64,000 nucleotides of DNA from Antedon mediterranea (lineage: Eukaryota; Animalia; Echinodermata), in NCBI RefSeq assembly GCF_964355755.1, contig NC_092674.1:17546001-17610000 (forward strand), given 5' to 3'. Positions 2,126 to 55,730 of this stretch are shown piece by piece. Every line of letters begins with the position of its first letter. The first letter of the stretch is position 1. The notes under the pieces were generated by a model. The model was not told the origin of the DNA. It searched no databases and saw only the letters and a program-made list of their open reading frames with translations. The translations under genes were made by a program, and so were the position numbers.

Positions 2126-2159
<34 letters not shown>

Positions 2160-13800: not shown

Positions 13801-13966
13801 TTCGAAAAATAACCAAATTTCCACCTTTAAACTTCAGTAATTAGGCTATAATATTGCCATTTATGCACATATATTGTGCTAACATCATCTTATAGAGCCA
13901 TAGTTACTAGTTATATCAAAAAATAAAAGGGTCGAAATTTGGCCATTTTTCGAAACTTTTCCTGCG
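10847..13966. repeat. Satellite 2, ~180-185 bp monomer with internal inverted repeat (block 1)
   Basis: Tandem attgtgctaacatcatcttatagagccatagtaactagttatgtcaaaaaataaaagggtcgaaatttggccatttttcgaaaattttcctgcgggggaccataggaattttttcgaaaaatgg... A near-perfect 664-bp duplication is present (e.g. 11294 vs 11958). Confidence 0.97.
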
Positions 13967-15215
13967 CAAAGGGTACAGCTCAATCTTCTCACTCGGAACG
14001 GTAAAGAACGCAAAAAGAAATGGACAAGAAATGGACAGAGCCATATGGGGTCATTAAAACTGAATTGGACTGGGTCATTAGATAATGAGGAAACTAGACA
14101 ATTGGCCAATGGGACCCAAGAATCTAGGAGGTTGTTTTGAATACCGGCATACTAAAAACTGTCAATTTTAGGGGTTTATCACATGATCGATGTATTAAAT
14201 GAATAAAAATATTAAATAATAGAATAATAAGACTTAAATTTTTTGGTAAAAGTCGAGAAAGTCGACATTTTTTTTATCCAATTTTCGAAAAATCCTTGTA
14301 CTACAGTACATGAATTTTGTTTTTTAAAACACGGTAAATTCGACTACAATATGTATGTTGTATTAATTCTTAGTTCTTTTAATATGACGAGACGTTGTTT
14401 TTTGTTGTGTTTTTAGGGTGTGAACAAGTGTCAATCAAAATTGTATATATAATTATGTTACTATGTAACTATTTAAAAACCCACCCTGACTTCTGATTGG
14501 CCAACCATATTCCAAGTAGTTTGATAAGTTAGCCTTTTAAAAAAATTGAGACAAAATTACCGTTAACTTTGTCTGGGGCTTTTTTTCTAGGCCACATGGT
14601 ACTGTAGCCTATCATAGGATATGTGTAACTGTAAGAGGAGTAACTAAAGGTTACTGGATAATAACCTCTATAGTATGAGTTATTATCAAAATATATTATC
14701 AGAATTGGTGGAATGAATTATTTGATTCACATAAAAATGAATTGTAGTGGAATTGCTCTTGAAATAAATATAAAATATTTGAGAATTTACACTACTAAGG
14801 AAATAGTCTTGACAAGAATATAGAATTCACCCTTTAATGTACACTCAACTGCAAAAGTTTCCCCTCTGCTTTTTTTGTAAGGGCTTGGGACCTTCAAATA
14901 CAAAGTGCAATGAATGATATAATGTAAATTATAATGTAATAATTAAAACTGAATGTAATTTATAAAAATTACAAAATAATTTACAACATTAATCATTGCT
15001 CTTTGGATTTGGCAGCATTAAAAACTTTTTTTTATTATTCTTCTTCTTAACTTTACTGCACATTCAGAATACCATTAGATATGGTGGCCCAATGGCCAAA
15101 TTGCATAAAATACAAATATTTTGTAAAAAGTGAATATAAAATCACAGAACAACAAAAAATTGAAGATATACGAAACAGTATAAAAATTATCCATGGCTAC
15201 AACAATCATTTGGAA

Positions 15216-17330
15216 TCATTCTTTTTGCTGCTTTTTTTTCCTCTCTTGACGAAGGCGACGGATGGCAACCATAGCCGATTTCCATTCTTTAAAAGTCACA
15301 TCAGATGTTGCAGCACAATACCAATTTCCATAGTACTGAGTGTAGTTCTTATTTAATCTTGGTTGCTTACACTTTGAGCACACAATCGCAGACGTTCTTG
15401 GTTTGTATATTTTGATCGGTTTCCCTTCCGATATGTCTTTAGCCACTCGTTTTCTGTACAAGAGGGTAGTTCTAGGAATCCGAGTACTGCTAGCCTCAGG
15501 GACTGATGGTGGTGGTTTTGCTATCTCGCCTGGAACTGGGATCGACGGTCCGTTTCCTAGAGTCGCTAGGCCGGAAGTGTTTTTTGGTAGGACAAATGTG
15601 AAAGATGGAGCGCTTGTATGAACGTTTAGCACCGCTGGCTTGGTTAAAGGTTCAAGTAGGGTTTTATCAGAGACAAGTTTGGGTATTGTTGCTGAGATGC
15701 CAGATTCCAACACTTGCCGCTCTTGCTTCTTTGACGTTCTGTTGTACCTGTTGAAAATAAATCAAACACAGTATTTAAAAACTTTAATGTATTTACTGTA
15801 GCGTAAAATAACAATCAATAACAAGTAAAAACTCACCACTGGATGAGTGTCGTACGATTTATCTCCATCAACTGAAGCTTAGCAAACAACATCAGGTGTC
15901 CATTCGATAGCACTTTCCGACTAATGTTCTTGTAGCCTTTGGTAATGAGCGGCCAGCGCTGGAAACGTTTACCTTCGATAGATACGGTAGATGGATACGC
16001 TTCACATAGTTTTGTAATAATGCACTCCGTATATCGATTGCAGTCCGGCCACTGAGCTGGCCCGGTGTTCTGACCTAAGAAGCATCTTTTTAAAAAAAAA
16101 CAAAGAAACAAGTTAGATTTAAGACACATCATGCAACAAAGTAAAAAACGCTGGAAACTGCCTTACCGTCGAGTGCTTTCGAAACCAGGTATTACGGAAG
16201 TAGTTTTACTTTTCTTGAACCTGCCTTTCGTCAGGTAATCTTGATGCCGTGCTTTGCGTTTAATGGTTTTGTCATAAGCATCCAGGTTGTTCCACAACTT
16301 TGCGACATGTTCAGCATGACTTTGACTTATCACTCCACTGTCTTCCTTAAACTGCATAAGGTAGTCTGCCAGGGCTTCAACTTTGGCGTAGCCTGGAATG
16401 TTGTCCGGTCCAGTGGAATCCTCAAGTTCCTAAATTGTAAAATATGAAAACAAAATATATAATCAGACTCGTGCATTGTATTTCAAAACAGAAACAAAAT
16501 TCGTGAGGTAGAAGCTAATGATACAAATTTAACTCACTGTGTCATAAAAGGGCTGCTTTTCCTTCACCATCATCATCATCATTATCGTCACATGAAGGCA
16601 AGGGCTCCAGCTGGGGTGGTGAGGGTTCTTTAGCATTTCGAGGTTTAAAACAACGCTTAGGTGGTTTGTAGTCTGGTTGAGTCTTGTCATCATACCCTTC
16701 ATCAACATCAAAAGTGTAAATTTCTTCATCAAAGTCTTCATCATAAATGGTATCTGTTTTGACAGGAAATTGAGTTTCGAGCACTTTGTTCGACTGGTTG
16801 TACAGGTACTCCACTCCGATGAGTCCTCCGGTGTACTTTTTTGGGATGATAAAACTTTTGTACACTTTTTTTCCAATCATTTGCTTTGCTAGTTTGTTGA
16901 GAGCACGCTGGTGCAGCCCACTATATGTACTGGAGGATGGGTGCTCCAGACTGGGTAGCATCTAGTGCCCGGTTTGCGTTCCATCGAACAAGTCCATTCA
17001 TATCATGTAAGCCTGGAAATGTAAGTTGCTAGCACGCTCACCTGAGAGAAAAAAAAACATCCATAATGATTAAATAATTCAAAAAATAAATAGATAGGTT
17101 TAAAGATTAAGTGGATACCAAATAAACAGTAATACCTGGATTGAACCTGTTAAGGTAAAGGCGAATAGATTCCAAAGAAGAAGTGGAGTCTCTTGGCAAG
17201 GTAACTACTCTAACCTTAATCATCTAGCACTGGTTTTTTCTGGGTTCTGTATGCAGGCGATGTGTCCAGAGAGCCCAAGACATCACATTCATTGTTGGTG
17301 TTTCCGTCCACCCTTCACACCTCCTTCAAG
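15216..17330 (-). pseudogene. Dada-like transposase remnant, 3' exons (copy 1)
   Basis: GT-AG exons ~17330-17136, 17041-16538, 16429-16167, 16085-15837, 15747-15216. Motifs HIACIQNP, STSSLESIRLYLNRFNPG (degenerate RGSTSLESFHLHLNRFIPG), LHFQAY, GLVRWN, YTGGLIGVEYLY, GPDNIPGY, GPAQWPDC, and C-terminal CSKC..QYYGNWYC. Upstream exons are frameshifted and the N-terminus is absent. Confidence 0.85.
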
Positions 17331-18626
17331 GCATCTTGAAGTACAGCATCAGGATTTAGACACTTGTGGTTGGTCTTGTTAAATAATATTACTGCAGCAG
17401 GTGTGTATCTTCACTTCGCTGAAAAGTTGGTCTTAAGAAAACTAAAGAAACTGATCAAAGGCAAGAATATAATGTAAATTAAAATATATGATAAAACAAA
17501 ATGTTACCGTATAATGCCACTGTGCACCATGCAGTTGTAGTAAATGGCTGTAGATTTTATAAGAAAATTAGATCTAAATAAAATATCGGTGGGTTGAAAT
17601 TTCTCAAGTGATAATTAATAGTAGACCAAGACTTTAAATGTAAATAAAATACCAATAAAATGAATCAAATGTAGCATTAAAACAAATCAACTAAGAACAA
17701 ATTAATTTTCTTATCTGAATTAAGAATTAAGAAAATATTATTATACACACTTTTATGAATTATAAATAATGTTTTTTTGTTTTACGAAATTAAAAACAAT
17801 TTACAAAGGCAGCATTACAACATAAATTTGATGTAATTGAATAGTCTTTGTTTATTAATGTATAATCTTTGATTCAGAGCATTTTCTTTTATGCAATCAA
17901 GTTATTTGAGAATCTTATCTAAATCCACAAATACAATTGATTGTCTAATTAAACGAATGATTTGGATCAAAGAGTTGAAGCCTACACTTACAATAATAAT
18001 ACAAAACAATCATTATAAAAGTTAAATTGTTTTTCTATATCATAGAAGGGTAGACATAGCTTTATTTAGTTTGTTTTGTCATACCACGGTGATTAATTGT
18101 TTTATATTGTTTAAATTTAGGGTTAAAATCTATTTAAAAAAATTAATATTAACATTTTTTGCATCAAAATTAAATTTTGAAGAATAGCTCACTTTAAACG
18201 AAAAATTCATCTATTACAATTACTAACTAGGCCTACTTACTACTACTAGTAGTAGGATTGTTAAAATATTAAATAAATAAAAAAGTCTAGGCCAAAAGGG
18301 AGCCCTAAAAATATACTAGCACTAGCAGTAGCAGCAGGCCCATTGGAAAACAAAGATCTAGGCTAACTAAAAGAGTGGCACAGAGAAAATCCTACCTTTG
18401 TTTGTTAATAATAATTAATATAGCTAGGCCTAGTAGGGGCTAATAATACTAAACTACTAGGCTAGTAGTAGTACTAAAGTAACTATACTATAGTAGTACC
18501 TTACATAGCTTAGCTAGGCCTAACTAATAAATGATAATATTAATACTACTGTAATAATATTAATAATATAAATTATCATCATTTTTTAGGGCCTAGCCTA
18601 TAGTGTGCAAACAATGTAAATAACAA

Positions 18627-19328
18627 TGTCGTGGTTCGGGAATCCTTAATATTGATTTGCTAGGTTTAGACCATTAAGGTTTGGTTTGTGAAGCCATGTA
18701 TCCCATGCAACGAAACAATACGCAAAATGAGGCTGTATTTACTCTGTATCGTTTATTTTTCTAAACAGGAACAACAAACAGGAACAACAAACCCTGTATA
18801 AAACAACGTCATAATTATTATGCATCAACAGTGTAATATAATTCAACAATAAAAACAATCACAAGCAAGCTTACTACAATATGGTCACTTCACTAATTAT
18901 CAATTAGTATTACTGTATATAACATTTAACGAACTTATACCTGGATCCAATACACCAATTTCATACTACTAATCACGTCAACCTGGTAAGTTATCCAATT
19001 AACTTCAACATGGTATGTTATACAACTAACTTCAACATGTATGCTATCTAATAAGACAAAGCTGTATATCAAAGAGAAATTATTAAACAGTGAATTCATG
19101 GTCATTACAAATAATGAACGATAACAACTTAACTCGGTTATGCACATGGAGTAATACTGTAAAACATTATGGTTGTTGTATAGAAAATATCTACTCACAG
19201 TATTGGCGAGAATCCACACTTTAAAGAAATACAGTATATAACATGTCTTACTCAGACAACAACTAAAACAACTTCTGCAGAACCAACGCTCACGCAGCCT
19301 ATTCAATATAATCATTCACCTGATATGC
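18627..19328 (-). repeat. Distal 702 bp of the Gypsy 3' LTR
   Basis: Apparently identical to 24826-25527 (offset 6199). Confidence 0.95.
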
Positions 19329-19502
19329 GTGTGTTTTTATTTAAGATGATATTGTGAATTGATGCTTATACTTACCTTATATGAAATATTGTTACTTTTG
19401 TATTACATTTACGATACTTGTTTTTTGTATTGAAGCTCTGTTTATTGTAGTGTTTAAAGTATTTATAGTTACTATAATATTGTCACAAATTCACCTTCTG
19501 CA

Positions 19503-22500
19503 ATGTCGCTAGGCCAATCTAAATCTGAAGCAACTGCAAGCGGCGATGGCGTTAATGATATGATTGCGGCATTAACTAATGTTTTAAAAGGCGTTTCGGT
19601 TCAGAAAGCTCCTCCGATTAAGTTAGTAAAATTTAAGGGTGTTCCAAGATCTCCCGGGGACATTACGTTAAAAGAATGGCTTGAAGATTTTCGAATTTAT
19701 TGTGATCATTATTCGTTGGGCGATGATGATCGATACGATACCCTGATTAGTCATCTTGGTGGTTGTGCGAAGGATGAGGTTAAATGCAGTATGAGTATGT
19801 GTGAAAATGGGAAGAATGTGAAAGCGGCTATAAGAATTTTAGAACTCGCTTTTAAATCAGAGGATTCTGTTGCATCATATAGTTCAGCATTTTATTCTAG
19901 GCAATTGTTACCGGGTGAAACTTTGGCTGAATATAGCCTTTCTTTAATGAAACTGTACTCCCAACTTGTCGAAGCGTCTTATCCCTCTGAGCAATCCGCT
20001 TTGAGACATCTTCAAGATACTACTTTAAAGCAGCGTTTAGTGGACGGTGTTCGTGATCCTACAGTTAAGCGTGAATTACGTCGCATTGAGCTAGCTTTTA
20101 GAGGAAAATCTTTTTTTGATATGCGCGAAGAAGTTCTTGAGTTGTATAAAGTTGATATTGTTAGGACAAATCCGCGTGCACATGGCGTAGAATGTAATGA
20201 ACGGCCCTCAGAACTATCAGAAGTAAAGCGAGAATTGCAAGCATTAAAGAAACAAATTAGCGAAATTCAGCGTTCCCAATTTATATCTAGTCCACCTAAG
20301 TTTAATCAACATTCTACAGGTCCTTTAAAATGTTACAATTGCGGTAAAAATGGTCATACCAAATCTGATTGTGAAATACCTTCTGGGTTGTGTTGGTTTT
20401 GTAGAGGAAGAGGTCATTATTCATATGCATGTCCACATAAGAATCGTAGTAGTAATTCTAATACTCCGGGTATCCAACGTAGTGCTTCAGATACGCCTAC
20501 TCAGGATATAATTAATACTGTTTCTAAGTCACAAACCAATCATCCAATTCCAACTGGTAATGTTGAACGTGAAGTTCATATCCCTGTTGTTGCCACGGAC
20601 AATAATGGAAATATGTCTAACGTCCAATCCTTGAAATGTTCCGATGTTGTTTTAGTAGATAAATTAGTAGCCAGAAGTCCATGTACTATCCTTAGAATAG
20701 GCTCAACTGAGTTAGGTTGTATCTTGGATACAGGGGCTGAAGCTTCAATAATTCCGTCATCGGTCTATAATAAGCAATTAAAGTCAATTGTTGGAGAGCT
20801 GGGATCTGTTAATGGGCTTTTCATGAATGTTATCGGTGTTTGTGGGGTGGAGGTTCCAATCGAAGGATATGTAGAAATTCCCATTGTTATAGGTGAACAA
20901 AAGTTAACTGGTAGTTTTTTGGTAGTTTCAGATGCTGTCACTGTAACTAATCATAGTAATGAATATCCTGTTTTGATTGGGTGTAACATTTTACGCGAAT
21001 TACAAGGGTTCCATTTATTACGTGATCTTTCACATGTAACCGCTACTCATGTTGATGCTCCATGGAATAGAAAGGCTGAAATTCTTTTGCAAGTAGATGA
21101 GGATGAATCAAGTATCTTAGTTTCTTTGCAACATTCTGATGTTACTATTCCTTGTGATTCACATTCAGAAATTGTTGACGGTAGTGTAAAATCTGATATT
21201 GATGATTGTAAGTTTAGTGACCACACCCAAAGTCGACTTGTATCCGTCGGTTCTGTGCGTAAGTTATATGACATTAATCACTCTTATTCTAATTCTTTTT
21301 GTGGTACTGAGTTAAATTCTGAGAGCCAGCAGTTACCGCCTGGGGTAATTATCAACGGTAACCTTGATTGTGTGGAAACTCAACAAGTGACTAACCTATT
21401 GTCTAAATATAATCATGTTTTTTCTCATAGTGGTTTTGATGTTGGGAAGTGTGATGTTATTCCTCATGTTATCAATTTAAAAGATGAAACTCCAATTAGA
21501 CTACCATATCGTCGTATTCCTCCTCATTCTATATCAAGTGTTAAGTCTATGTTACAAGAAATGTTGGACCAAGGAATAATTAGGCCGTCCAAAAGCGAAT
21601 TTGCAAGTCCCATTGTGTTGGTCAAAAAGAAAGACGGGTCTTTGCGCATGTGCGTTGATTATAGGAAGTTGAATTTCCAAACGTTGAAAGATTCATTTCC
21701 CCTACCACGCATTGATGAGGTTCTAGAAGTACTCACTGGGTCTTGTTATTTTTCTACCTTAGATTTATCTCATGGATTTTTCCAAATTATAATGGCAGAC
21801 GAATCTATTAATAAAACTGCATTTAGGGTTCCTTGGGGACTGTATGAATTTGTTCGTATGCCGCAGGGTCTGTCTAATAGCCCGGGAACATTTCAACGTG
21901 TAATGGAATATGTATTAGGCGACATGAATTTGACTCAGATTGTGTTGTACTTGGATGACATTTTGATATTTTCTTCTTCGTTTAAACAACATTTATCTAG
22001 ATTAGAAAATGTGTTGTCCAGATTGTATAAGTATGGGTTAAAGGTTAAGGGGAAGAAGTGCGATTTCTTTAAGACGGAGGTAACCTATTTGGGTCATGTT
22101 ATCTCATCTGCTGGAGTTGCTGTAGACTATGGGAAAATAGAAAAGATACTGACCTGGCCAACGCCAAAAAGTATTACTGAACTTAAATCATTTCTGGGAC
22201 TCTCTTCATACTATCGAAAGTTTATTTGTAATTATGCCAAAATTGCTGCGCCCTTGCATTTGGTAACCCGGTTGTCTGACACACAAGCGGGGAAGGCCCA
22301 CAGTTTTCGTTGGACTGAAATTGAAGAAGCCGCATTTGTTGAATTAAAAAATGCTTTAACTAAACCCCCAGTTCTTGTATATCCCAAATTTGATGAACCA
22401 TTTGTTATTGAAGTAGATGCCAGTTTGAAAGGTTTAGGTGCTTGCTTGTTGCAGGAGTCTAATGGTTCTCTTCATCCAATTGCTTATGCAAGTAGAAGTC

Positions 22501-24470
22501 TTCGTGGTGCTGAATGCCGATACCCTGATTTATCGAGTTTTAAGTTAGAGTTGTTGGGGCTAAAATGGGCAGTGGTGGATAAATTCGCTTCTTACATTCA
22601 GGGTTCAAAGGTTACCATTTTTACTGATCATAATCCTTTAGCGCATTTAAAAACTGCAAAGCTTGGCGCTACAGAAATGAGATGGGTCTCTCAGTTAGCT
22701 ATGTTCGATATTGAAATCAAATATAAGCCAGGTTCTAGCAACAAATGTGCCGATACTTTAAGTCGTCGTCCGATTAGTGTGTGTACGGATTTTAAGTCGG
22801 ATCTAGGAGTTATCGCTTCATGTCTTAATATATATGTTGATTCTCATCCCTCAATTAATAAGTGTAAACCATGTATTGAAATTGATCAATCATCACGTAA
22901 TATTAACAAAGCATTGTCTATTTTTCCTTCATACTCCCATGAGCAGTTGGCAGAATGTCAGAAGAAAGATAGGGAATTGGGAGAAATCTGGAAATTATGG
23001 ATGGAAAAATGGTGTCCTGGTGACCGCTACAATACAGATAATTCTAGAATGTTGGGCTGGTTGAGACAGTGGACAAGTTATAGAGAGATTTGTGGAGTTC
23101 TGTATAGAGAGATCAATGAGGATATCCATGGTAAAATTCATCAATTGTTAGTGCCTACTAATTTGCGCAATCTTTTTATAGATTTATGTCATGATAAATG
23201 GGCTCATCAAGGAGTTCAACGGACTATACAACTTCTAAAGCGTCGATGTTTCTGGCCAGGTATGAATGGTGATGTACGTACGCATATTTCCAAGTGTTTT
23301 AGTTGTGTATCTAGTAAAGTCCCTACTCCAACGGTCAAACCCCCTCTTCGTCATATTCTAGCCTTTCGTCCCGAAGAGATTCTTGCTATAGATTTCTTAA
23401 AGATGGATCGTGGAAAGGGAGGCTATGAAGACATTCTTGTTATGACTGATGTGTTTAGTAAGTTTTCACTAGCGGTCCCATGTAAAGATCAGACGGCTGA
23501 TACAGTGGCTCGTGTATTGAGAGATAATTGGTTTTCCCACTATGGTGTGCCAGCACGGTTACATTCGGATCAAGGTAGATCCTTTGAGGGTAAAATTATT
23601 CAAGGTATATGTAGTCTTTATGGCATGACAAAATCTCGCACTACAGCGTATTGGCCTGCAGGTAATGGGCAGTGCGAACGTTTCAACAAGACCTTATGCA
23701 GTTTATTGCGTTCTTTAAGCCCGAAAGATCGACGCAAATGGCCCGAATTGCTGCAGCATATTGTGTTTATGTATAATTCCACCCCTCATACCGTTACAGG
23801 TGTAACACCGTATCTTCTTATGTTTGGTCGTGAACCATTAATTCCATTAGATCACTTTATTGGAGGTGCGGAGCAAGATTGGTCTGAGGATTATTTGACT
23901 AAAGAAGCTGATCTCATGAAGAGGGCATATGAAGTGGTTTCACGTAGAGTCAAATCAGCAGCAGCTAAAGAAGAGCATCGTTATAAGTCTTGTTCTCCGA
24001 CGGAAATATTAGAAATTGGTGATCGGGTTTTACTTCGTCGAAGACATTTTAATACTAGACATAAATTGGCCAATAAGTTCGAGGAGCACTCGTATATTGT
24101 TGAGACTATTAACAAAGAAGCAGACGTTTTTGGTATCCGCTCTGCAGTTGGGGGTCCTTTGAATTATGTTAACCGCAGACGATTGCGATCGGATCCTAGG
24201 AGTGTGGTGGAAGAACTGGTACATTTTGATTGGAATGAGTGGTTGCCGTATGATGGTCTAGAAGTGGATGTAAATTATAAAGATGAAAGTTGTGAGTCTG
24301 AATCGGATGATGATGTTGAAAGTTTTAAGATTGTTGTAGATGTGAATTCTGATCAATCAATAGATGTTGAGCGTGATGATTCGAGAGTAATTCCAAGGCG
24401 ATCATCTCGTTTTACAAAAGGTGTTCACAAAAATCGATATCGCTTACCCATGTCCACTCTTAAAAAATAA
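19503..24470 (+). CDS. Gypsy Gag-Pol polyprotein (single ORF, 1655 aa)
   Basis: Gag with two CCHC knuckles (CYNCGKNGHTKSDC, CWFCRGRGHYSYAC), protease LDTGA, RT (LRMCVDYRKLN, YLDD), RNase H (VDAS, TDHNPL, ADTLSR), integrase HHCC plus IDF/SDQG/CERFN. Order PR-RT-RH-IN, no stops. Confidence 0.98.
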   Translation: MSLGQSKSEATASGDGVNDMIAALTNVLKGVSVQKAPPIKLVKFKGVPRSPGDITLKEWLEDFRIYCDHYSLGDDDRYDTLISHLGGCAKDEVKCSMSMCENGKNVKAAIRILELAFKSEDSVASYSSAFYSRQLLPGETLAEYSLSLMKLYSQLVEASYPSEQSALRHLQDTTLKQRLVDGVRDPTVKRELRRIELAFRGKSFFDMREEVLELYKVDIVRTNPRAHGVECNERPSELSEVKRELQALKKQISEIQRSQFISSPPKFNQHSTGPLKCYNCGKNGHTKSDCEIPSGLCWFCRGRGHYSYACPHKNRSSNSNTPGIQRSASDTPTQDIINTVSKSQTNHPIPTGNVEREVHIPVVATDNNGNMSNVQSLKCSDVVLVDKLVARSPCTILRIGSTELGCILDTGAEASIIPSSVYNKQLKSIVGELGSVNGLFMNVIGVCGVEVPIEGYVEIPIVIGEQKLTGSFLVVSDAVTVTNHSNEYPVLIGCNILRELQGFHLLRDLSHVTATHVDAPWNRKAEILLQVDEDESSILVSLQHSDVTIPCDSHSEIVDGSVKSDIDDCKFSDHTQSRLVSVGSVRKLYDINHSYSNSFCGTELNSESQQLPPGVIINGNLDCVETQQVTNLLSKYNHVFSHSGFDVGKCDVIPHVINLKDETPIRLPYRRIPPHSISSVKSMLQEMLDQGIIRPSKSEFASPIVLVKKKDGSLRMCVDYRKLNFQTLKDSFPLPRIDEVLEVLTGSCYFSTLDLSHGFFQIIMADESINKTAFRVPWGLYEFVRMPQGLSNSPGTFQRVMEYVLGDMNLTQIVLYLDDILIFSSSFKQHLSRLENVLSRLYKYGLKVKGKKCDFFKTEVTYLGHVISSAGVAVDYGKIEKILTWPTPKSITELKSFLGLSSYYRKFICNYAKIAAPLHLVTRLSDTQAGKAHSFRWTEIEEAAFVELKNALTKPPVLVYPKFDEPFVIEVDASLKGLGACLLQESNGSLHPIAYASRSLRGAECRYPDLSSFKLELLGLKWAVVDKFASYIQGSKVTIFTDHNPLAHLKTAKLGATEMRWVSQLAMFDIEIKYKPGSSNKCADTLSRRPISVCTDFKSDLGVIASCLNIYVDSHPSINKCKPCIEIDQSSRNINKALSIFPSYSHEQLAECQKKDRELGEIWKLWMEKWCPGDRYNTDNSRMLGWLRQWTSYREICGVLYREINEDIHGKIHQLLVPTNLRNLFIDLCHDKWAHQGVQRTIQLLKRRCFWPGMNGDVRTHISKCFSCVSSKVPTPTVKPPLRHILAFRPEEILAIDFLKMDRGKGGYEDILVMTDVFSKFSLAVPCKDQTADTVARVLRDNWFSHYGVPARLHSDQGRSFEGKIIQGICSLYGMTKSRTTAYWPAGNGQCERFNKTLCSLLRSLSPKDRRKWPELLQHIVFMYNSTPHTVTGVTPYLLMFGREPLIPLDHFIGGAEQDWSEDYLTKEADLMKRAYEVVSRRVKSAAAKEEHRYKSCSPTEILEIGDRVLLRRRHFNTRHKLANKFEEHSYIVETINKEADVFGIRSAVGGPLNYVNRRRLRSDPRSVVEELVHFDWNEWLPYDGLEVDVNYKDESCESESDDDVESFKIVVDVNSDQSIDVERDDSRVIPRRSSRFTKGVHKNRYRLPMSTLKK

Positions 24471-24505
24471 ATTTGTTTCGCTCCTTTTGGGTCAAAAGGG
24501 CATCC

Positions 24506-24516
24506 AAGCGGGGAAA
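24506..24516 (+). other. Polypurine tract
   Basis: AAGCGGGGAAA lies one base before the LTR start TGTAATGG at 24518. Confidence 0.8.
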
Positions 24517-24517
24517 T

Positions 24518-24606
24518 TGTAATGGATCGGAAAGCTTCCGAAGTTTCTTATATCTACATTATTGGTGGCGCAATATATTGCATTGCATTGCTATTGTTCA
24601 CTACTG
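24518..24606 (+). repeat. First 89 bp of the Gypsy 3' LTR (carried by the inversion)
   Basis: Exact reverse complement of 25546-25634. Confidence 0.95.
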
Positions 24607-24804
24607 ATATGCATGTCCATCGAAACAAAGATTCTGTAATATTATTATATAAAACCATACACCTTCCGTTCTAAAATTAAATTAAGTTAATTAATCTTAT
24701 CTGTCCAATACTCCTTGTCTTATGCACGATCCAGGGTTTGGTAAAACAATTGTTGAAAATACACAAGGCAATCCTCCTTCAGGAATGCTTGAAACGTTGC
24801 ATCC

Positions 24805-24822
24805 ATCCTGTCCGTGACGCCA
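24805..24822 (-). other. Primer-binding site, tRNA-Ser-like
   Basis: Minus strand reads LTR end ..CCACGACA-AAT-TGGCGTCACGGACAGGAT. This is complementary to a tRNA 3' end ATCCTGTCCGTGACGCCA, resembling tRNA-Ser(CGA). Confidence 0.88.
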
Positions 24823-24825
24823 ATT

Positions 24826-25634
24826 TGTCGTGGTTCGGGAATCCTTAATATTGATTTGCTAGGTTTAGACCATTAAGGTTTGGTTTGTGAAGCCATGTAT
24901 CCCATGCAACGAAACAATACGCAAAATGAGGCTGTATTTACTCTGTATCGTTTATTTTTCTAAACAGGAACAACAAACAGGAACAACAAACCCTGTATAA
25001 AACAACGTCATAATTATTATGCATCAACAGTGTAATATAATTCAACAATAAAAACAATCACAAGCAAGCTTACTACAATATGGTCACTTCACTAATTATC
25101 AATTAGTATTACTGTATATAACATTTAACGAACTTATACCTGGATCCAATACACCAATTTCATACTACTAATCACGTCAACCTGGTAAGTTATCCAATTA
25201 ACTTCAACATGGTATGTTATACAACTAACTTCAACATGTATGCTATCTAATAAGACAAAGCTGTATATCAAAGAGAAATTATTAAACAGTGAATTCATGG
25301 TCATTACAAATAATGAACGATAACAACTTAACTCGGTTATGCACATGGAGTAATACTGTAAAACATTATGGTTGTTGTATAGAAAATATCTACTCACAGT
25401 ATTGGCGAGAATCCACACTTTAAAGAAATACAGTATATAACATGTCTTACTCAGACAACAACTAAAACAACTTCTGCAGAACCAACGCTCACGCAGCCTA
25501 TTCAATATAATCATTCACCTGATATGCAAATACGCCCGCGAATACCAGTAGTGAACAATAGCAATGCAATGCAATATATTGCGCCACCAATAATGTAGAT
25601 ATAAGAAACTTCGGAAGCTTTCCGATCCATTACA
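24826..25634 (-). repeat. Complete 809-bp Gypsy 5' LTR
   Basis: Minus strand TGTAATGG...CCACGACA with imperfect terminal inverted repeat, followed by the PBS. Confidence 0.95.
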
Positions 25635-26029
25635 ACAACACCATAGTAGAATGGGCTAACAAATGCATCTCTAGGCCTATTGTTACTAATAAAAAAAGGC
25701 CTACCATATAACGACAAATACGAGCAGGCCAACTGGTTTCGCGGGGCTGGCATGGGGCTTACCACATATGTCATACATAACATGACATTGGCTAGGCTAA
25801 CTAGGCCAAACAATTTTCAAAACTTTTAAATGCTAATTTATAGCATAAAATAAACTTCTTCTCCTACCTTAAATGCAAGCACACGTTCGACATAAATACA
25901 GCTACTACTAGAAGATCTTTTTCAAATGAATTTAATACTAAGTCGAGAGAATTTGTAAAAAGATGTTGTCTGTTGGCAAAATCTTATCATTGTTGTGAAT
26001 GTGTGAAACATGTGTGGAGAAGTCAGATA

Positions 26030-26120
26030 TTAATTACGTCACTTTCCAGTGCTCTGATTGTTCAACAATTTGAACACTTTAGTGACGTCATCAGTGCTCT
26101 CAGTGCTCTGATTGGTCAAA
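26030..26120 (-). promoter_or_regulatory. Putative promoter of the Dada-like transposase (CRE palindrome, CCAAT-type repeats); same at ~31236-31326
   Basis: TGACGTCA at 26083-26090 lies between two CAGTGCTCTGATTG(T/G)TCAA repeats, near the element end upstream of the minus-strand gene. Confidence 0.45.
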
Positions 26121-26187
26121 TTAGGCCATTGAATTGAACAACTCATGTTCCAATTCTACAGAACACATTGAGTTATTTGTAGCGCGG

Positions 26188-29100
26188 AGGGTACAGCTCA
26201 ATCTTCTCACTCGGAACGGTAAAGAACGCAAAAAGAAATGGACAAGAAATGGACAGAGCCATGTGGGGTCATTAAAACTGAATTGGACTGGGTCATTAGA
26301 TAATGAGGAAACTAGACAATTGGCCAATGGGACCCAAGAATCTAGGAGGTTGTTTTGAATACCGGCATACTAAAAACTGTCAATTTTAGGGGTTTATCAC
26401 ATGATCGATGTATTAAATGAATAAAAATATTAAATAATAGAATAATAAGACTTAAATTTTTTGGTAAAAGTCGAGAAAGTCGACATTTTTTTTATCCAAT
26501 TTTCGAAAAATCCTTGTACTACAGTACATGAATTTTGTTTTTTAAAACACGGTAAATTCGACTACAATATGTATGTTGTATTAATTCTTAGTTCTTTTAA
26601 TATGACGAGACGTTGTTTTTTGTTGTGTTTTTAGGGTGTGAACAAGTGTCAATCAAAATTGTATATATAATTATGTTACTATGTAACTATTTAAAAACCC
26701 ACCCTGACTTCTGATTGGCCAACCATATTCCAAGTAGTTTGATAAGTTAGCCTTTTAAAAAAATTGAGACAAAAATACCGTTAACTTTGTCTGGGGCTTT
26801 TTTTCTAGGCCACATGGTACTGTAGCCTATCATAGGATATGTGTAACTGTAAGAGGAGTAACTAAAGGTTACTGGATAATAACCTCTATAGTATGAGTTA
26901 TTATCAAAATATATTATTAGAATTGGTGGAATGAATTATTTGATTCACATAAAAATGAATTGTAGTGGAATTGCTCTTGAAATAAATATAAAATATTTGA
27001 GAATTTACACTACTAAGGAAATAGTCTTGACAAGAATATAGAATTCACCCTTTAATGTACACTCAACTGCAAAAGTTTCCCCTCTGCTTTTTTTGTAAGG
27101 GCTTGGGACCTTCAAATACAAAGTGCAATGAATGATATAATGTAAATTATAATGTAATAATTAAAACTGAATGTAATTTATAAAAATTACAAAATAATTT
27201 ACAACATTAATCATTGCTCTTTGGATTTGGCAGCATTAAAAACTTTTTTTTATTATTCTTCTTCTTAACTTTACTGCACATTCAGAATACCATTAGATAT
27301 GGTGGCCCAATGGCCAAATTGCATAAAATACAAATATTTTGTAAAAAGTGAATATAAAATCACAGAACAACAAAAAATTGAAGATATACGAAACAGTATA
27401 AAAACTATCCATGGCTACAACAATCATTTGGAATCATTCTTTTTGCTGCTTTTTTTTCCTCTCTTGACGAAGGCGACGGATGGCAACCATAGCCGATTTC
27501 CATTCTTTAAAAGTCACATCAGATGTTGCAGCACAATACCAATTTCCATAGTACTGAGTGTAGTTCTTATTTAATCTTGGTTGCTTACACTTTGAGCACA
27601 CAATCGCAGACGTTCTTGGTTTGTATATTTTGATCGGTTTCCCTTCCGATATGTCTTTAGCCACTCGTTTTCTGTACAAGAGGGTAGTTCTAGGAATCCG
27701 AGTACTGCTAGCCTCAGGGACTGATGGTGGTGGTTTTGCTATCTCGCCTGGAACTGGGATCGACGGTCCGTTTCCTAGAGTCGCTAGGCCGGAAGTGTTT
27801 TTTGGTAGGACAAATGTGAAAGATGGAGCGCTTGTATGAACGTTTAGCACCGCTGGCTTGGTTAAAGGTTCAAGTAGGGTTTTATCAGAGACAAGTTTGG
27901 GTATTGTTGCTGAGATGCCAGATTCCAACACTTGCCGCTCTTGCTTCTTTGACGTTCTGTTGTACCTGTTGAAAATAAATCAAACACAGTATTTAAAAAC
28001 TTTAATGTATTTACTGTAGCGTAAAATAACAATCAATAACAAGTAAAAACTCACCACTGGATGAGTGTCGTACGATTTATCTCCATCAACTGAAGCTTAG
28101 CAAACAACATCAGGTGTCCATTCGATAGCACTTTCCGACTAATGTTCTTGTAGCCTTTGGTAATGAGCGGCCAGCGCTGGAAACGTTTACCTTCGATAGA
28201 TACGGTAGATGGATACGCTTCACATAGTTTTGTAATAATGCACTCCGTATATCGATTGCAGTCCGGCCACTGAGCTGGCCCGGTGTTCTGACCTAAGAAG
28301 CATCTTTTTAAAAAAAAACAAAGAAACAAGTTAGATTTAAGACACATCATGCAACAAAGTAAAAAACGCTGGAAACTGCCTTACCGTCGAGTGCTTTCGA
28401 AACCAGGTATTACGGAAGTAGTTTTACTTTTCTTGAACCTGCCTTTCGTCAGGTAATCTTGATGCCGTGCTTTGCGTTTAATGGTTTTGTCATAAGCATC
28501 CAGGTTGTTCCACAACTTTGCGACATGTTCAGCATGACTTTGACTTATCACTCCACTGTCTTCCTTAAACTGCATAAGGTAGTCTGCCAGGGCTTCAACT
28601 TTGGCGTAGCCTGGAATGTTGTCCGGTCCAGTGGAATCCTCAAGTTCCTAAATTGTAAAATATGAAAACAAAATATATAATCAGACTCGTGCATTGTATT
28701 TCAAAACAGAAACAAAATTCGTGAGGTAGAAGCTAATGATACAAATTTAACTCACTGTGTCATAAAAGGGCTGCTTTTCCTTCACCATCATCATCATCAT
28801 TATCGTCACATGAAGGCAAGGGCTCCAGCTGGGGTGGTGAGGGTTCTTTAGCATTTCGAGGTTTAAAACAACGCTTAGGTGGTTTGTAGTCTGGTTGAGT
28901 CTTGTCATCATACCCTTCATCAACATCAAAAGTGTAAATTTCTTCATCAAAGTCTTCATCATAAATGGTATCTGTTTTGACAGGAAATTGAGTTTCGAGC
29001 ACTTTGTTCGACTGGTTGTACAGGTACTCCACTCCGATGAGTCCTCCGGTGTACTTTTTTGGGATGATAAAACTTTTGTACACTTTTTTTCCAATCATTT

Positions 29101-31387
29101 GCTTTGCTAGTTTGTTGAGAGCACGCTGGTGCAGCCCACTATATGTACTGGAGGATGGGTGCTCCAGACTGGGTAGCATCTAGTGCCCGGTTTGCGTTCC
29201 ATCGAACAAGTCCATTCATATCATGTAAGCCTGGAAATGTAAGTTGCTAGCACGCTCACCTGAGAGAAAAAAAAACATCCATAATGATTAAATAATTCAA
29301 AAAATAAATAGATAGGTTTAAAGATTAAGTGGATACCAAATAAACAGTAATACCTGGATTGAACCTGTTAAGGTAAAGGCGAATAGATTCCAAAGAAGAA
29401 GTGGAGTCTCTTGGCAAGGTAACTACTCTAACCTTAATCATCTAGCACTGGTTTTTTCTGGGTTCTGTATGCAGGCGATGTGTCCAGAGAGCCCAAGACA
29501 TCACATTCATTGTTGGTGTTTCCGTCCACCCTTCACACCTCCTTCAAGGCATCTTGAAGTACAGCATCAGGATTTAGACACTTGTGGTTGGTCTTGTTAA
29601 ATAATATTACTGCAGCAGGTGTGTATCTTCACTTCGCTGAAAAGTTGGTCTTAAGAAAACTAAAGAAACTGATCAAAGGCAAGAATATAATGTAAATTAA
29701 AATATATGATAAAACAAAATGTTACCGTATAATGCCACTGTGCACCATGCAGTTGTAGTAAATGGCTGTAGATTTTATAAGAAAATTAGATCTAAATAAA
29801 ATATCGGTGGGTTGAAATTTCTCAAGTGATAATTAATAGTAGACCAAGACTTTAAATGTAAATAAAATACCAATAAAATGAATCAAATGTAGCATTAAAA
29901 CAAATCAACTAAGAACAAATTAATTTTCTTATCTGAATTAAGAATTAAGAAAATATTATTTTACACACTTTTATGAATTATAAATAATGTTTTTTTGTTT
30001 TACGAAATTAAAAACAATTTACAAAGGCAGCATTACAACATAAATTTGATGTAATTGAATAGTCTTTGTTTATTAATGTATAATCTTTGATTCAGAGCAT
30101 TTTCTTTTATGCAATCAAGTTATTTGAGAATCTTATCTAAATCCACAAATACAATTGATTGTCTAATTAAACGAATGATTTGGATCAAAGAGTTGAAGCC
30201 TACACTTACAATAATAATACAAAACAATCATTATAAAAGTTAAATTGTTTTTCTATATCATAGAAGGGTAGACATAGCTTTATTTAGTTTGTTTTGTCAT
30301 ACCACGGTGATTAATTGTTTTATATTGTTTAAATTTAGGGTTAAAATCTATTTAAAAAAATTAATATTAACATTTTTTGCATCAAAATTAAATTTTGAAG
30401 AATAGCTCACTTTAAACGAAAAATTCATCTATTACAATTACTAACTAGGCCTACTTACTACTACTAGTAGTAGGATTGTTAAAATATTAAATAAATAAAA
30501 AAGTCTAGGCCAAAAGGGAGCCCTAAAAATATACTAGCACTAGCAGTAGCAGCAGGCCCATTGGAAAACAAAGATCTAGGCTAACTAAAAGAGTGGCACA
30601 GAGAAAATCCTACCTTTGTTTGTTAATAATAATTAATATAGCTAGGCCTAGTAGGGGCTAATAATACTAAACTACTAGGCTAGTAGTAGTACTAAAGTAA
30701 CTATACTATAGTAGTACCTTACATAGCTTAGCTAGGCCTAACTAATAAATGATAATATTAATACTACTGTAATAATATTAATAATATAAATTATCATCAT
30801 TTTTTAGGGCCTAGCCTATAGTGTGCAAACAATGTAAATAACAACACCATAGTAGAATGGGCTAACAAATGCATCTCTAGGCCTATTGTTACTAATAAAA
30901 AAAGGCCTACCATATAACGACAAATACGAGCAGGCCAACTGGTTTCGCGGGGCTGGCATGGGGCTTACCACATATGTCATACATAACATGACATTGGCTA
31001 GGCTAGCTAGGCCAAACAATTTTCAAAACTTTTAAATGCTAATTTATAGCATAAAATAAACTTCTTCTCCTACCTTAAATGCAAGCACACGTTCGACATA
31101 AATACAGCTACTACTAGAAGATCTTTTTCAAATGAATTTAATACTAAGTCGAGAGAATTTGTAAAAAGATGTTGTCTGTTGGCAAAATCTTATCATTGTT
31201 GTGAATGTGTGAAACATGTGTGGAGAAGTCAGATATTAATTACGTCACTTTCCAGTGCTCTGATTGTTCAACAATTTGAACACTTTAGTGACGTCATCAG
31301 TGCTCTCAGTGCTCTGATTGGTCAAATTAGGCCATTGAATTGAACAACTCATGTTCCAATTCTACAGAACACATTGAGTTATTTGTA
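26188..31387 (-). mobile_element. Dada-like DNA transposon, non-autonomous copy 2 (5,200 bp)
   Basis: Near-identical to copy 1 (only a handful of substitutions seen) and lacks the Gypsy. Flanked by a perfect 6-bp repeat GCGCGG (26182-26187, 31388-31393). Confidence 0.78.
27434..29548 (-). pseudogene. Dada-like transposase remnant, 3' exons (copy 2)
   Basis: Same exons and translations as copy 1 at offset 12218. Confidence 0.85.
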
Positions 31388-34350
31388 GCGCGGGGGACCA
31401 TAGGAATTTTTAGCAAAAATGACCAAAATTTCAACTTTTTAAAATTCAATAATTATGCTATAATATTGCCATTTATGCACATATATTGTGCTAACATCAT
31501 CTAATAGAGCCATAGTTACTAGTTATGTCAAAAAATAAAAGGATCGAAAAATGCCAAAATTTTCCACTTTTTAAAATTAAATAATTATGCTATAATATTG
31601 CCATTAATGCAAATATATTGTGCTAACATCCTCTTATAGAGCCATAGTAACTAGTTATGTCAAAAAATAAAAGGGTCGAAATTTGGCCATTTTCCGAAAA
31701 TTTCCCGTCGGGGGACAACAAGAATTTTTTCGAAAAATAACCAAAATGTCTACCATTTAAAATTCAATAATTTGGCTATAATATATCCATTTATGCACAT
31801 ATATTGTGTTAACATCGTCTTATAGAGCCATAGTAACTAGTTATGTCAACAAATAAAAGTATCGAAATTTTGCCATTTTCCGACAATTTCCCTGCGGGGA
31901 CCAGAGGAAATTTTTTCGAGAAATAACCAAAATTTCCACTTTTTAAAATTCGAAAATTATGCTATAATATTGCCATTGATACAAATATATTGTGCTAACA
32001 TCTTATAGAGCCATAGTAACTACTTATGTCAAAAAATAAAAGGGTTGAAATTTGGCCATTTTCCGGAAATTTCCCTGCGGGGTCCATAGAAATTTTTTTC
32101 GAAAAATAGACAAAATTTCCACTTTTTGAAAATTCGATAATTATGCTATAATATTGCCATTTATGCAAATATATTGTGCTAACATCAACTTATAGAGACA
32201 TAGCAACTAGTTATGTAAAAAAATAAATGGGTCAACATTTGGATATTTTCCAAAAATTTCGCTGCGGAGGACCATAGGAATTTTTTCCGAAAAATAGCAA
32301 ACTGCGGGGTACCATAGGAATTTTTTCGAAAAATGGCAAAAATTTCCACTTTTCCAAATTCGAAAATTATGCTATAATGTTGCCATTTTCACAGATATAT
32401 TTTGCTAACATCATCTTATAGAGCCATATAAACTAGTTATTTCAAAAAACAAAAGGGTCGAAAAATTGCATAGTTTCGAAAATTTTTCAGCGGGAGACCA
32501 TAGGAATTTTTTTCGAAAAATGGCAAAAATTCCCGATTTTTAAAATTTAGTAATTATTCTATAATATTGCCATAATTTATGCACATATATTGTGTTAAAA
32601 TCATCTAATAGAGCGATCATAACTAGTTATGTCAAAAAATAAATGGGTCGAAATTTGGCCATTTTTCGAAATTTCTCTGCGGTGGACCACAGGAATTTTT
32701 TCGAAAAATAACCAAAATATCCACATTTTAAAATTCAATAATTAGGCTATAATATGCCAGTTATGCACATATATTGTGTTAAAATCATCTTATAGACCCA
32801 TAGTCACTAGTTATATCAAAAAATAAAAGGGTCGAAATTTGGCCATTTTTCGAAAATTTTCCTTCGGAGGACCATAGTAATTTTTTTCAAAAATGGCCAA
32901 AATTTTCCACTTTTTCAAATTCAATAATTATGCTATAATATTGCCATTTATGCACATATATTGTGCTAACATCATCTTATAGAGCCATATCAACTAGTTA
33001 TGTTAAAAAACAAAAGGGTCGAAAAATTGCAAAATTTTCCACTTTTTAAAATTCAATAATTATGCTATAATATTGCCATTTTTGCAAATATATTGTGCTA
33101 ACATCATCTTATAGAGCCATAGTTACTAGTTATATCAAAAAATAAAAGGGTCGAAATTTGGCAATTTTTCGAAAATTTTCCTGCGGGGACCATAGGAATT
33201 TTTTCGAAAAATGGCAAAAATTTCCAATTTTTAAATTCTATAATTAGGCTATAATATTGCCATTCATGCACATATATTGTGCTAACATCATCTTATAGAG
33301 CAATAGCAACTACTTATGTCAAAATATAAAAGGGTCGAAAATGACCAAAATTTCCACCTTTTAAAATTCAATAATTATGCTATAATTGCACATATATTGT
33401 GTTAACATCATCTTATAGAGTAACTAGTTACATCAAAAAATAAAAGTGTCGAAATTCGGCCATATTCGAAAATTTTCCTGCGGGGGACCATAGGAATTTT
33501 TTCGAAAAATGGACAAAATTTCAAATTTCTAAAATTCGAAAATTATGCTATAATATTGCCATTTATGCAAATATATTGTGCTAACATCATCTTATAGACC
33601 CATAGTTACTAGTTATATCAAAAAATAAAAGGGTCGAAATTTGGCCATTTTTCAAAAATTTTCCTTCGGGGGACCATAGGAATTTTTTTCAAAAATGGCC
33701 AAAATTTCCACTTTCTAAAATTCCAAAATTATGTTATAATATTGCCATTTATGCACATATTTTGTGCTAACATCATCTTATAGAGCCATAGCAACTAATT
33801 ATGTCAAAAAACAAAAGTGTCGAAAAATTGAAAAATTTTCCACTTTTTTAAATTCAATAATTATGCTATAATATTGCCATTTATGCACATATATTGTGCT
33901 AACATCATCTTATAGAGCCATATCAACTAGTTATGTTAAAAAACAAAAGGGTCGAAAAATTGCAAAATTTTCCACTTTTTAAAATTCAATAATTATGCTA
34001 TAATATTGCCATTTTATCAAATATATTGTGCTAACATCATCTTATAGAGCCATAGTTACTAGTTATATCAAAAAATAAAAGGGTCGAAATTTGGCCATTT
34101 TTCGAAAATTTTCCTTCGGGGGACCATAGGAATTTTTTTCAAAAATGGCCAAAAATTTCCACTTTCTAAAATTCCAAAATTATGTTATAATATTGCCATT
34201 CATGCACATATTTTGTGCTAACATCATCTTATAGAGCCATAGCAACTAATTATGTCAAAAAACAAAAGGGTCGAAAAATGGAAACATTTTCCACTTTTTC
34301 AAATTCAATAATTATGCTATAATATTGCCATTTATGCACATATATTGTGT

Positions 34351-42045: not shown

Positions 42046-42119
42046 ATATTCGGGGTACAGCGAAAGAAGCTGTATATAGACGTATACAATTATTTCACCA
42101 TAAAGTAAAAGAAACCCGA

Positions 42120-42190
42120 GGTTTCGCCAGGGCTCGAACCGGGACCTTCTGCGTGTTAAGCAGACTTGACAACCACTACACTACGAAAGC
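42120..42190 (-). pseudogene. tRNA-Val(AAC)-like pseudogene
   Basis: GCTTTCGTAGTGTAGTGGTTGTCAAGTCTGCTTAACACGCAGAAGGTCCCGGTTCGAGCCCTGGCGAAACC. Anticodon AAC, with mismatches in the acceptor, D and T stems. Confidence 0.75.
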
Positions 42191-42405
42191 CACTTACACT
42201 AAAAATGTGGGTTACAGAAAGTTTTTTAATCCATTTAAATTACAAATAAATATGGTAATAAGCACAAAGAAAAATAAAAATGTGTAAAAGTGATAATTAC
42301 CGATTACACAAAATAAGTATTTAAAAAAATTATAAAAATAAGATATACTGTGTGTAATTATCATATTGCGTATACAGTACTTTTCACCATAACGTTTAAA
42401 AAAAA

Positions 42406-55698: not shown

Positions 55699-55730
55699 TA
55701 ATAATAATATTTATTCGGTCATCAATGTAA

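What the first reader, a model, noticed from the sequence alone, without database searches (positions are those of the whole stretch)
18627..25634. Young Gypsy element whose intact gag-pol is flipped antisense to its own LTR promoter and PBS
Seen: the complete 809-bp LTR (25634->24826), the tRNA-Ser-like PBS (24822->24805) and ~190 bp of leader run on the minus strand. The rest of the leader, the uninterrupted 1655-aa ORF, the PPT and the first 89 bp of the 3' LTR (~19329-24606) run on the plus strand. The remaining 702 bp of the 3' LTR is again minus (19328->18627). The TG..CA ends and ACAA TSD are intact and the LTR copies look identical. Established: Gypsy LTR, PBS, ORF and PPT are normally co-oriented. 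Inference: a 5.3-kb internal inversion in a very recent insertion. The 5' LTR would now transcribe full-length antisense gag-pol with LTR termination, making it a ready-made antisense/piRNA source against its own active family. A less likely alternative is a propagating rearranged architecture.
Basis: partly seen in the sequence, partly recalled or inferred. Interest (0 to 1): 0.85.

Follow-up and report, generated by a model that had tools for sequence, protein, structure and literature searches.

The report
Retrotransposon copy with flipped gene core
One very young copy of an otherwise ordinary jumping gene, likely from a feather star, has its 5.3-kb protein-coding core turned backwards between its two end repeats, likely through a one-off DNA repair accident, so it likely cannot copy itself and would make backwards RNA that could, but is not shown to, silence its relatives.

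Summary
The anatomy is as described: intact 809-bp 5' LTR, PBS and 193 bp of leader on minus; remaining leader, unbroken 1655-aa Ty3/Gypsy gag-pol, PPT and LTR 1-89 on plus; LTR 108-809 on minus; LTR copies identical. A tandem twin of the flanks holds the empty ACAA site, so the flip is confined to the element. In 4 of 4 public runs (3 samples) the family reads in normal orientation across both junctions. The break lies in presumed U3 while the 5' LTR is whole, so this copy is unlikely to descend from an inverted parent: a propagating architecture is improbable. Both junctions carry the same 9-mer from an imperfect LTR palindrome, with small losses, as in microhomology-mediated repair. No reads of the carrier were available, so an assembly artefact remains open (about 0.13). 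Antisense RNA is predicted, not shown; eight AATAAA sites on the antisense strand weaken 'full-length', and only an 89-bp stem can form, unlike Mu killer. Verdict: likely a real, dead-end, internally inverted copy; silencer role speculative. The scan's notes held no earlier match.

The parts
13964..18626 (.). Left flank: first part of a 5.2-kb unit that is duplicated head to tail inside a 186-bp satellite
   Evidence: 99.85% to 26182-30844 over 4663 bp
18623..18626 (.). Target site duplication ACAA, left copy
   Evidence: single copy at empty twin site
18627..19328 (-). Distal part of the 3' LTR (LTR positions 108-809); keeps the CA end and the LTR's only sense AATAAA (LTR 679, window 18757-18752)
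   Evidence: 702 of 702 identical to 24826-25527
19320..19328 (+). Left inversion junction; 9-mer that is native LTR sequence here
   Evidence: family contigs leave the window path here
19329..19502 (+). Second half of the leader (inside the inversion)
   Evidence: joined to 24612 on the opposite strand in 4 of 4 runs
19503..24470 (+). Single gag-pol ORF, 1655 aa: PNMA-like gag, two CCHC knuckles, protease DTG, RT YLDD, RNase H, integrase HHCC and D-D35E; no env, no chromodomain
   Evidence: 1045 of 1051 aa identical to a protein named Antedon mediterranea
24494..24517 (+). Short purine-rich PPT-like stretch just before the LTR start (inside the inversion)
   Evidence: two 7-nt purine runs at 24494 and 24510; function inferred from position
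24518..24606 (+). First 89 bp of the 3' LTR (inside the inversion)
   Evidence: 89 of 89 exact to the start of the intact LTR
24604..24613 (+). Right inversion junction; 10-bp match to the LTR site 25519-25528, of which about 5 bases (24607-24611) belong to neither neighbour as read in the family contigs
24612..24804 (-). First half of the leader (outside the inversion)
24805..24822 (-). Primer-binding site, 18 nt, starts TGG 3 nt after the LTR
   Evidence: contigs of 3 runs stop matching exactly at 24805 (loose ends); tRNA-Ser assignment recalled, not tested
24826..25634 (-). Intact 5' LTR, 809 bp, TG...CA; TATA-like words at LTR 414, 497, 515 and AATAAA at 679 suggest U3 is the first ~500 bp (predicted)
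25635..25638 (.). Target site duplication ACAA, right copy
25635..26190 (.). Right flank: second part of the duplicated unit
   Evidence: 99.6% to 30841-31396
26182..31396 (.). Twin of the flanking unit without the element; empty target site at 30841-30844
   Evidence: 6 differences in 5197 compared bases

Best explanation
This is one young Ty3/Gypsy copy whose 5.3-kb core reads opposite to its LTRs and primer site, likely flipped once by microhomology-mediated repair of two DNA breaks, which likely leaves it unable to retrotranspose and predicted to make antisense RNA of untested effect. Shown: the anatomy, the empty twin site, and that family contigs are co-oriented. Inferred steps: (1) a normal parent RNA was reverse-transcribed, giving two identical LTRs; (2) the DNA copy broke once in the leader and once in an imperfect palindrome at LTR ~81-121; (3) the ends were rejoined crosswise with 18 bp of LTR and a few leader bases lost and a short stretch copied from the far arm of the palindrome, as in synthesis-dependent MMEJ; most likely after integration (about 0.6), otherwise on the unintegrated cDNA or by RT strand jumps (about 0.4); (4) the 5' LTR would now drive RNA through PBS and half the leader into antisense integrase-to-gag sequence, ending at an internal AATAAA or in the remaining 3' LTR; (5) such RNA has no PPT before its 3' LTR and its U3 lacks the TG end, so it would give no integrable daughter.
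For: Canonical joints at both breakpoints in 4 of 4 runs from 3 samples; one 6248-bp contig of run X6 holds the whole family in normal order. LTR contigs of X1, X3, X4 run on into native LTR sequence past 19328. Flanks collinear with the empty twin, 4-bp TSD true. LTR copies 0 differences in 791 bases; twin 6 in 5197, so 0.92 LTR differences expected if equally old. Break at LTR 89/108 lies far upstream of TATA-like words and AATAAA, and both LTRs' U3 derive from the parent's 3' U3 (established), so a whole 5' LTR implies a whole parent. Same 9-mer at both junctions; chance of the 5 unexplained bases matching at that place about 0.002; SD-MMEJ leaves such repeat motifs from 2-4-bp repeats within 30 bp of the break (PMC7407515, passages). 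No inverted repeat long enough to mislead an assembler borders the segment, no N. No purine run of 7 or more within 279 nt before the distal LTR part. Proviruses with inversions are a known defect class in HIV-1 (6% of 531, PMC6235535; two of the proviruses in PMC9278108; passages).
Against: No read or contig spanning either novel junction was seen; the four runs of the best-matching sample give no cover of the left flank at 98%, so the carrier was not tested. The LTR palindrome is no more stable than shuffles (z -0.93, 41 of 200 fold as well), so its causal role is only suggested by position. Family contigs differ in the number of letters between the leader halves (3 in X1, X2, X5; 7 in X6; record coordinates), so whether the 5 extra bases are a templated insertion or came from the parent's leader is open. 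Promoter, start site and polyA site are motif guesses in AT-rich DNA. The region is satellite-rich with other near-identical tandem duplications, which is hard ground for assemblers.
Confidence: 0.72

Rival explanations
1. Assembly or library artefact: the animal carries a normal copy and the inversion arose from chimeric molecules or a misjoin.
For: All four laid runs show only the normal form; no bridging contig; satellite-rich region with tandem duplications; amplification chimeras are often inversions with small deletions (recalled).
Against: Two reciprocal junctions with only 18 and a few bases lost, both carrying one 9-mer; no long inverted repeat, no gap; breakpoints are not at LTR ends where contigs break; the laid sample does not cover the flank, and Logan contigs drop rare variants, so their silence is uninformative.
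Confidence: 0.13
2. The copy is real and acts as a self-contained, dominant antisense silencer (or defective-interfering RNA) of its own active family: LTR-driven antisense RNA feeds small-RNA production or is co-packaged through its retained PBS and half leader.
For: Intact 5' LTR, PBS and R region face antisense gag-pol that is about 99% like family copies; single rearranged or well-placed copies silence whole families in maize (Mu killer, PMC3440606 abstract), Antirrhinum (OSt/NSt, bioRxiv 10.1101/2024.06.24.600476 abstract) and koala (MAP4K4 insertion, PMC11703332 passage).
Against: No RNA data; 8 AATAAA and 3 ATTAAA on the antisense strand (about chance level, 6.0 AATAAA expected, but enough to end a transcript); only an 89-bp stem with a 931-nt loop, and that only on read-through from upstream; an intact, unselected ORF shows youth, not function; any copy landing antisense in a host transcript gives the same RNA.
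Confidence: 0.1
3. A propagating architecture: an inverted master makes inverted daughters, in cis or with helper proteins.
For: Ends, TSD and ORF are intact; PBS and R are kept.
Against: Normal form in 4 of 4 runs; a daughter of an inverted RNA would carry two LTRs both lacking positions 1-107, unlike this copy; no PPT-like run before the distal LTR.
Confidence: 0.03
4. Helper copy: the LTR's antisense strand has promoter activity and now drives sense gag-pol, giving proteins without a packageable RNA.
For: A TATAAA lies on the LTR's antisense strand (LTR 639) upstream of the ORF, and an AATAAA at 24466 at its end.
Against: Such words are common in 33% GC DNA; an antisense-strand AATAAA follows 51 nt later (LTR 588); no RNA evidence.
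Confidence: 0.02

Closest known systems
Ty3/Gypsy (Metaviridae) LTR retrotransposons with PNMA-like gag, as in sea urchin relatives P0005 and P0008
   Same: TG...CA LTRs, 4-bp TSD, PBS, PPT-like tract, single gag-pol in PR-RT-RH-IN order; best solved relative is Ty3 Gag-Pol (E 6.6e-97); PNMA match E 1.7e-4, below Pfam's cut-off.
   Different: In this one copy ORF and PPT are opposite to LTRs and PBS, and the 3' LTR is split; the family itself is normal.
Defective HIV-1 proviruses with internal inversions (PMC6235535, PMC9278108; passages read)
   Same: An integrated retroelement with a segment that aligns only when reverse-complemented; counted as replication-defective.
   Different: Those are somatic and amplified by PCR or whole-genome amplification; here a likely germline copy, with the whole ORF unbroken and one breakpoint inside the 3' LTR.
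Mu killer (maize) and Old/New Stabiliser (Antirrhinum) (abstracts read)
   Same: A rearranged single copy that could aim RNA at its own family.
   Different: DNA transposons; Mu killer and NSt are inverted duplications with hairpin RNA and have shown small RNA or silencing. Here a plain inversion, 89-bp stem at most, nothing shown.
KoRV-A insertion in the MAP4K4 3' UTR (PMC11703332, passage read); piRNA-cluster traps such as flamenco (listing)
   Same: One copy proposed to silence a young invading family through RNA.
   Different: Those rely on a host transcript or cluster; here the element's own LTR would be the promoter.
[quoted passage not shown]
   Same: Small deletions and a short repeat motif copied from within 30 bp of a break.
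   Different: A junction signature only; the enzyme and timing cannot be read from one sequence, and RT strand jumps could leave a similar mark.

Membership tests
Ty3/Gypsy LTR retrotransposon | RT, RNase H and integrase in the order PR-RT-RH-IN behind a gag | tested here: met
   Pfam RVP 393-502 (E 2.7e-4), RVT_1 707-867, RT_RNaseH 963-1068, Integrase_H2C2 1217-1272, rve 1289-1383; DTG, YLDD, D-35-E motifs
Ty3/Gypsy LTR retrotransposon | TG...CA LTRs and a 4-6 bp TSD (PMC12440569 abstract) | tested here: met
   empty twin site confirms a 4-bp TSD
Ty3/Gypsy LTR retrotransposon | LTR, PBS, ORF, PPT, LTR co-oriented | tested here: not met
   Not met in this copy; met in the family's contigs in 4 of 4 runs. 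So: a defective copy of a member family
Ty3/Gypsy LTR retrotransposon | PBS complementary to a host tRNA 3' end | tested here: inconclusive
   18-nt block starting TGG next to the LTR, conserved to its exact edge in other contigs; cognate tRNA not in the window
Ty3/Gypsy LTR retrotransposon | Named clade within Gypsy by RT tree | not tested
   No reference set of named clades was at hand; only PNMA-like gag and lack of env/chromodomain seen
Mu killer-type silencer locus | Long inverted duplication giving hairpin RNA | tested here: not met
   Only inverted pair is 94 bp with 931 nt between
Mu killer-type silencer locus | Small RNAs from the locus and dominant silencing of the family | not testable with these tools
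   No raw or stranded RNA reads offered
Mobile rearranged subfamily | Several copies with the same junctions at different target sites | tested here: inconclusive
   No genome held; 0 of 4 runs and 0 of 4 list a contig through the window's junctions, but contigs drop rare variants and the piece tables were cut
Mobile rearranged subfamily | PPT and a complete U3 end in front of the 3' LTR on the transcribed strand | tested here: not met
   No purine run of 7+ within 279 nt; LTR 1-107 missing there

The most novel reading that the evidence does not exclude
A retrotransposon that turned itself into its own off-switch in one step: the inversion puts a complete antisense gag-pol between the element's own promoter and terminator, with no host gene or piRNA cluster needed, and the RNA, still carrying PBS and half the leader, is packaged with or pairs with sense genomes and silences the active family in carriers.
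Probability: 0.1. Interest if true: 0.7.

Novelty: new variant of a known kind. Interest (0 to 1): 0.33.

Why it matters
As it stands it is a tidy natural example of a defective retroelement copy with an exact record of how it broke, plus an empty twin site as built-in control. If it is transcribed and lowers family activity, it would show a route to transposon silencing that needs neither a trap locus nor a hairpin, and carriers versus non-carriers of one allele would test directly whether a single antisense copy can start silencing of a young family in a marine invertebrate. A population check would also tell whether such inversions arise at birth of a copy or later.

Tried and rejected
Whole-genome census of copies: no genome is held for this window. 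Sequencing runs: 13 listed, no RNA holder listed; X5 is only guessed to be RNA and is contigs, so it says nothing on strand or expression. 6 of the 13 runs were laid (X1-X6); X7-X13 were not. Left flank 18300-18626 has no cover in X1-X4 at 98%: not used as evidence for or against the locus. Contig depths were not read as copy numbers. Hairpin stability at the LTR break and at both junctions: none of 5 folded stretches beats shuffles. Metagenome search for relatives with the same architecture: 79 loci, best 48% identity, none matches this LTR; a crude PBS/PPT orientation screen on them was uninformative, mostly because LTRs were cut by contig ends. 126-aa ORF in the LTR: no Pfam match and frameshifting indels in run X6, taken as chance. 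Autointegration and DNA-transposon-driven inversion were considered and dropped: junctions do not involve LTR ends and no transposon remnant is present. Haplotype false duplication of the flanks was considered; the head-to-tail joint at 26182-26190 has no satellite between units, which argues against it but does not exclude it. PMC12657518 holds no 'inversion'; 10.1101/2022.12.06.519325 passages were irrelevant. Ten literature searches listed no natural LTR retrotransposon copy with this arrangement in titles or abstract starts; only listings were seen for most, subscription journals and supplements were not covered. Earlier scan notes: one near miss on a fungal genome, nothing by place or sequence.
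Full report
Observation. On minus lie an intact 809-bp LTR (25634-24826, TG...CA), an 18-nt PBS starting TGG 3 nt later (24822-24805) and 193 bp of leader. On plus lie 174 bp of leader, a 1655-aa ORF without a stop (19503-24470), a short purine tract and the first 89 bp of the LTR (24518-24606, exact). On minus again lie LTR positions 108-809 (19328-18627), identical to the intact LTR at 702 of 702 bases. LTR positions 90-107 are missing from the split copy. The window has no N.

What the protein is. Pfam gives zinc knuckle, protease, RT, RNase H and integrase in Gypsy order; the catalytic words DTG, YLDD and D-35-E are present. The gag part matches PNMA weakly (E 1.7e-4, below the cut-off), and the last 256 aa show no env or chromodomain match. 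The nearest solved relative is Ty3 Gag-Pol. The nearest database protein is 1045 of 1051 aa identical and is labelled Antedon mediterranea; other relatives are from sea urchins or unnamed. The host is therefore likely a feather star (inference). I did not place the family in a named clade.

A built-in control. The element sits in the first unit of a 5.2-kb head-to-tail duplication set in a 186-bp satellite: 13964-18626 plus 25635-26190 recur at 26182-31396 with 6 differences in 5197 compared bases. The second unit has the empty site with one ACAA (30841-30844). So the TSD is a true 4-bp one, both flanks are collinear, and the flip is confined to the element. At the twin's divergence 0.92 differences would be expected between the LTR copies; 0 are seen, which fits an insertion no older than the duplication.

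The family is normal. Of 13 public runs listed, four from three samples were laid on 18900-25090. All four show two strand-changing joints, 19328/24610 and 19329/24612: the LTR continues as an unbroken LTR, and the two leader halves join in one direction. Run X6 holds the whole family in one 6248-bp contig in normal order. Loose ends at LTR edges with other flanks point to other insertion sites. A second lay of the four runs of the best-matching sample on 18300-19420 again showed LTR contigs leaving the window path at 19328 in X1, X3 and X4 (X2 had no LTR contig there at 98%) and leader contigs starting at 19329 in all four; it gave no cover of the left flank. No listed contig runs straight through either novel junction, but the piece tables were cut (147 and 10 rows not shown), contigs drop rare variants, and this sample does not appear to be the carrier. 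These calls show what the family looks like, not whether this allele is real. No whole genome was held.

The junctions. The 9-mer CTGATATGC stands at both junctions in the same direction and in the intact LTR, and nowhere else in 64 kb (0.38 expected by composition). At the left junction it is native LTR. At the right junction it overlaps the end of LTR 1-89 by three bases and the leader by one or two, leaving about five bases that neither neighbour supplies in the family contigs; chance of that match is about 0.002. In the intact LTR the two break positions lie in the two arms of an imperfect palindrome (LTR about 81-121), which is not more stable than shuffles (z -0.93). Family contigs have 3 letters (X1, X2, X5) or 7 (X6) between the leader halves, by record coordinates; the letters were not printed, so the extra bases may be templated from the LTR arm or inherited from the parent. 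Either way the picture is two reciprocal joins with small losses and short homology. That is the signature described for synthesis-dependent MMEJ (PMC7407515, passages). It is unlike an assembler misjoin, which needs long repeats or gaps (established; none border the segment), and a library chimera would need two matched switches. I leave 0.13 for artefact because no carrier reads were seen and the region is satellite-rich with other 97-99% duplications.

When it happened, and whether it can move. The LTR has one sense AATAAA at 679 and TATA-like words at 414, 497 and 515, so the break at 89/108 likely lies in U3 (predicted). Both LTRs of a new copy take U3 from the parent's 3' LTR (established). 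A whole 5' LTR thus implies a whole parent, and the flip came after LTR copying: on the integrated DNA (my estimate 0.6; reciprocal joins come naturally from two breaks) or on the cDNA (0.4; the copy is very young, and HIV-1 proviruses with inversions are a recognised class: 6% of 531 in PMC6235535, two cases in PMC9278108, passages; those data pass through amplification). An RNA from this copy would lack a purine tract before its 3' LTR (none of 7 or more within 279 nt) and the TG end of U3, so it would likely give no integrable daughter; any daughter would have two LTRs starting at 108.

The silencer idea. The geometry would let the intact 5' LTR transcribe antisense gag-pol, and the LTR polyA word survives in the distal part. 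But the antisense strand carries 8 AATAAA (6.0 expected) and 3 ATTAAA, the first 745 nt in, so 'full-length' is not safe; their downstream U content is lower than or near that of the LTR signal, so read-through is not excluded either. The only inverted pair is 94 bp with a 931-nt loop, and one arm lies in presumed U3, outside an LTR-started RNA. Mu killer is a partial inverted duplication with a proposed 4-kb hairpin (PMC3440606, abstract); the Antirrhinum Stabiliser loci are rearranged or head-to-head Tam3 copies that make small RNAs (bioRxiv 10.1101/2024.06.24.600476, abstract); a single KoRV-A insertion in MAP4K4 appears to drive silencing in koalas (PMC11703332, passage); dispersed piRNA-producing insertions are discussed in Drosophila (PMC10588112, abstract). 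These show the idea is plausible in kind; nothing here tests it.

Novelty and verdict. The family is an ordinary Ty3/Gypsy member (termini and TSD as in PMC12440569, abstract). This copy is a defective variant with an unusually clean whole-core inversion. Ten searches listed no natural LTR retrotransposon copy of this form, judged from listings only; subscription papers and supplements were not seen. Distant metagenome relatives gave nothing usable. The scan's earlier notes held no match. Best reading 0.72: a real, one-off, dead-end inversion. Interest 0.33; it would rise to about 0.7 if antisense small RNAs and family silencing were shown in carriers (probability about 0.1).

Noticed in passing
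window 13964-18626 + 25635-26190 and 26182-31396; diverged relative at 53678-55709: A 5.2-kb unit without Pfam-matching ORF sits as a head-to-tail dimer inside the 186-bp satellite, entering at a short GCG/G-rich overlap, with weak imperfect terminal inverted repeats; an 83% relative starts at nearly the same boundary. Possibly a non-autonomous mobile element.
   Followed up: partly
window 33952-37170 and 37298-40515; 31415-33097 and 36009-37696: Further 97-99% tandem duplications of 1.7-3.3 kb inside the satellite region; the neighbourhood is rearrangement-prone or hard to assemble.
   Followed up: no
window 1650-10850, 10900-13960, 31390-40500, 61457-64000: Three satellite families with units of about 87/165, 186/132 and 82 bp fill much of the window.
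   Followed up: no
window 42118-42190 and 42405-42477, minus: Two tRNA-Val(AAC) genes 287 bp apart.
   Followed up: no
window 24962-24984 and 19172 (both LTR copies): Both window LTRs carry a 13-bp extra repeat and 3 extra bases that the main contigs of the laid runs lack, and the ORF differs from all four runs at a few sites (19662, 19763, 22931, 23429): the window copy belongs to its own sub-lineage (table cut).
   Followed up: partly
window 24805 and 19289-19327, loose ends in runs X1, X2, X5: Contigs that share the PBS or short LTR patches and then diverge point to a related LTR family in the same animals.
   Followed up: no
window 25134-25514 and 18935-19315, minus: A 126-codon ORF inside the LTR; no Pfam match, frameshifting indels in run X6, taken as chance.
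   Followed up: partly
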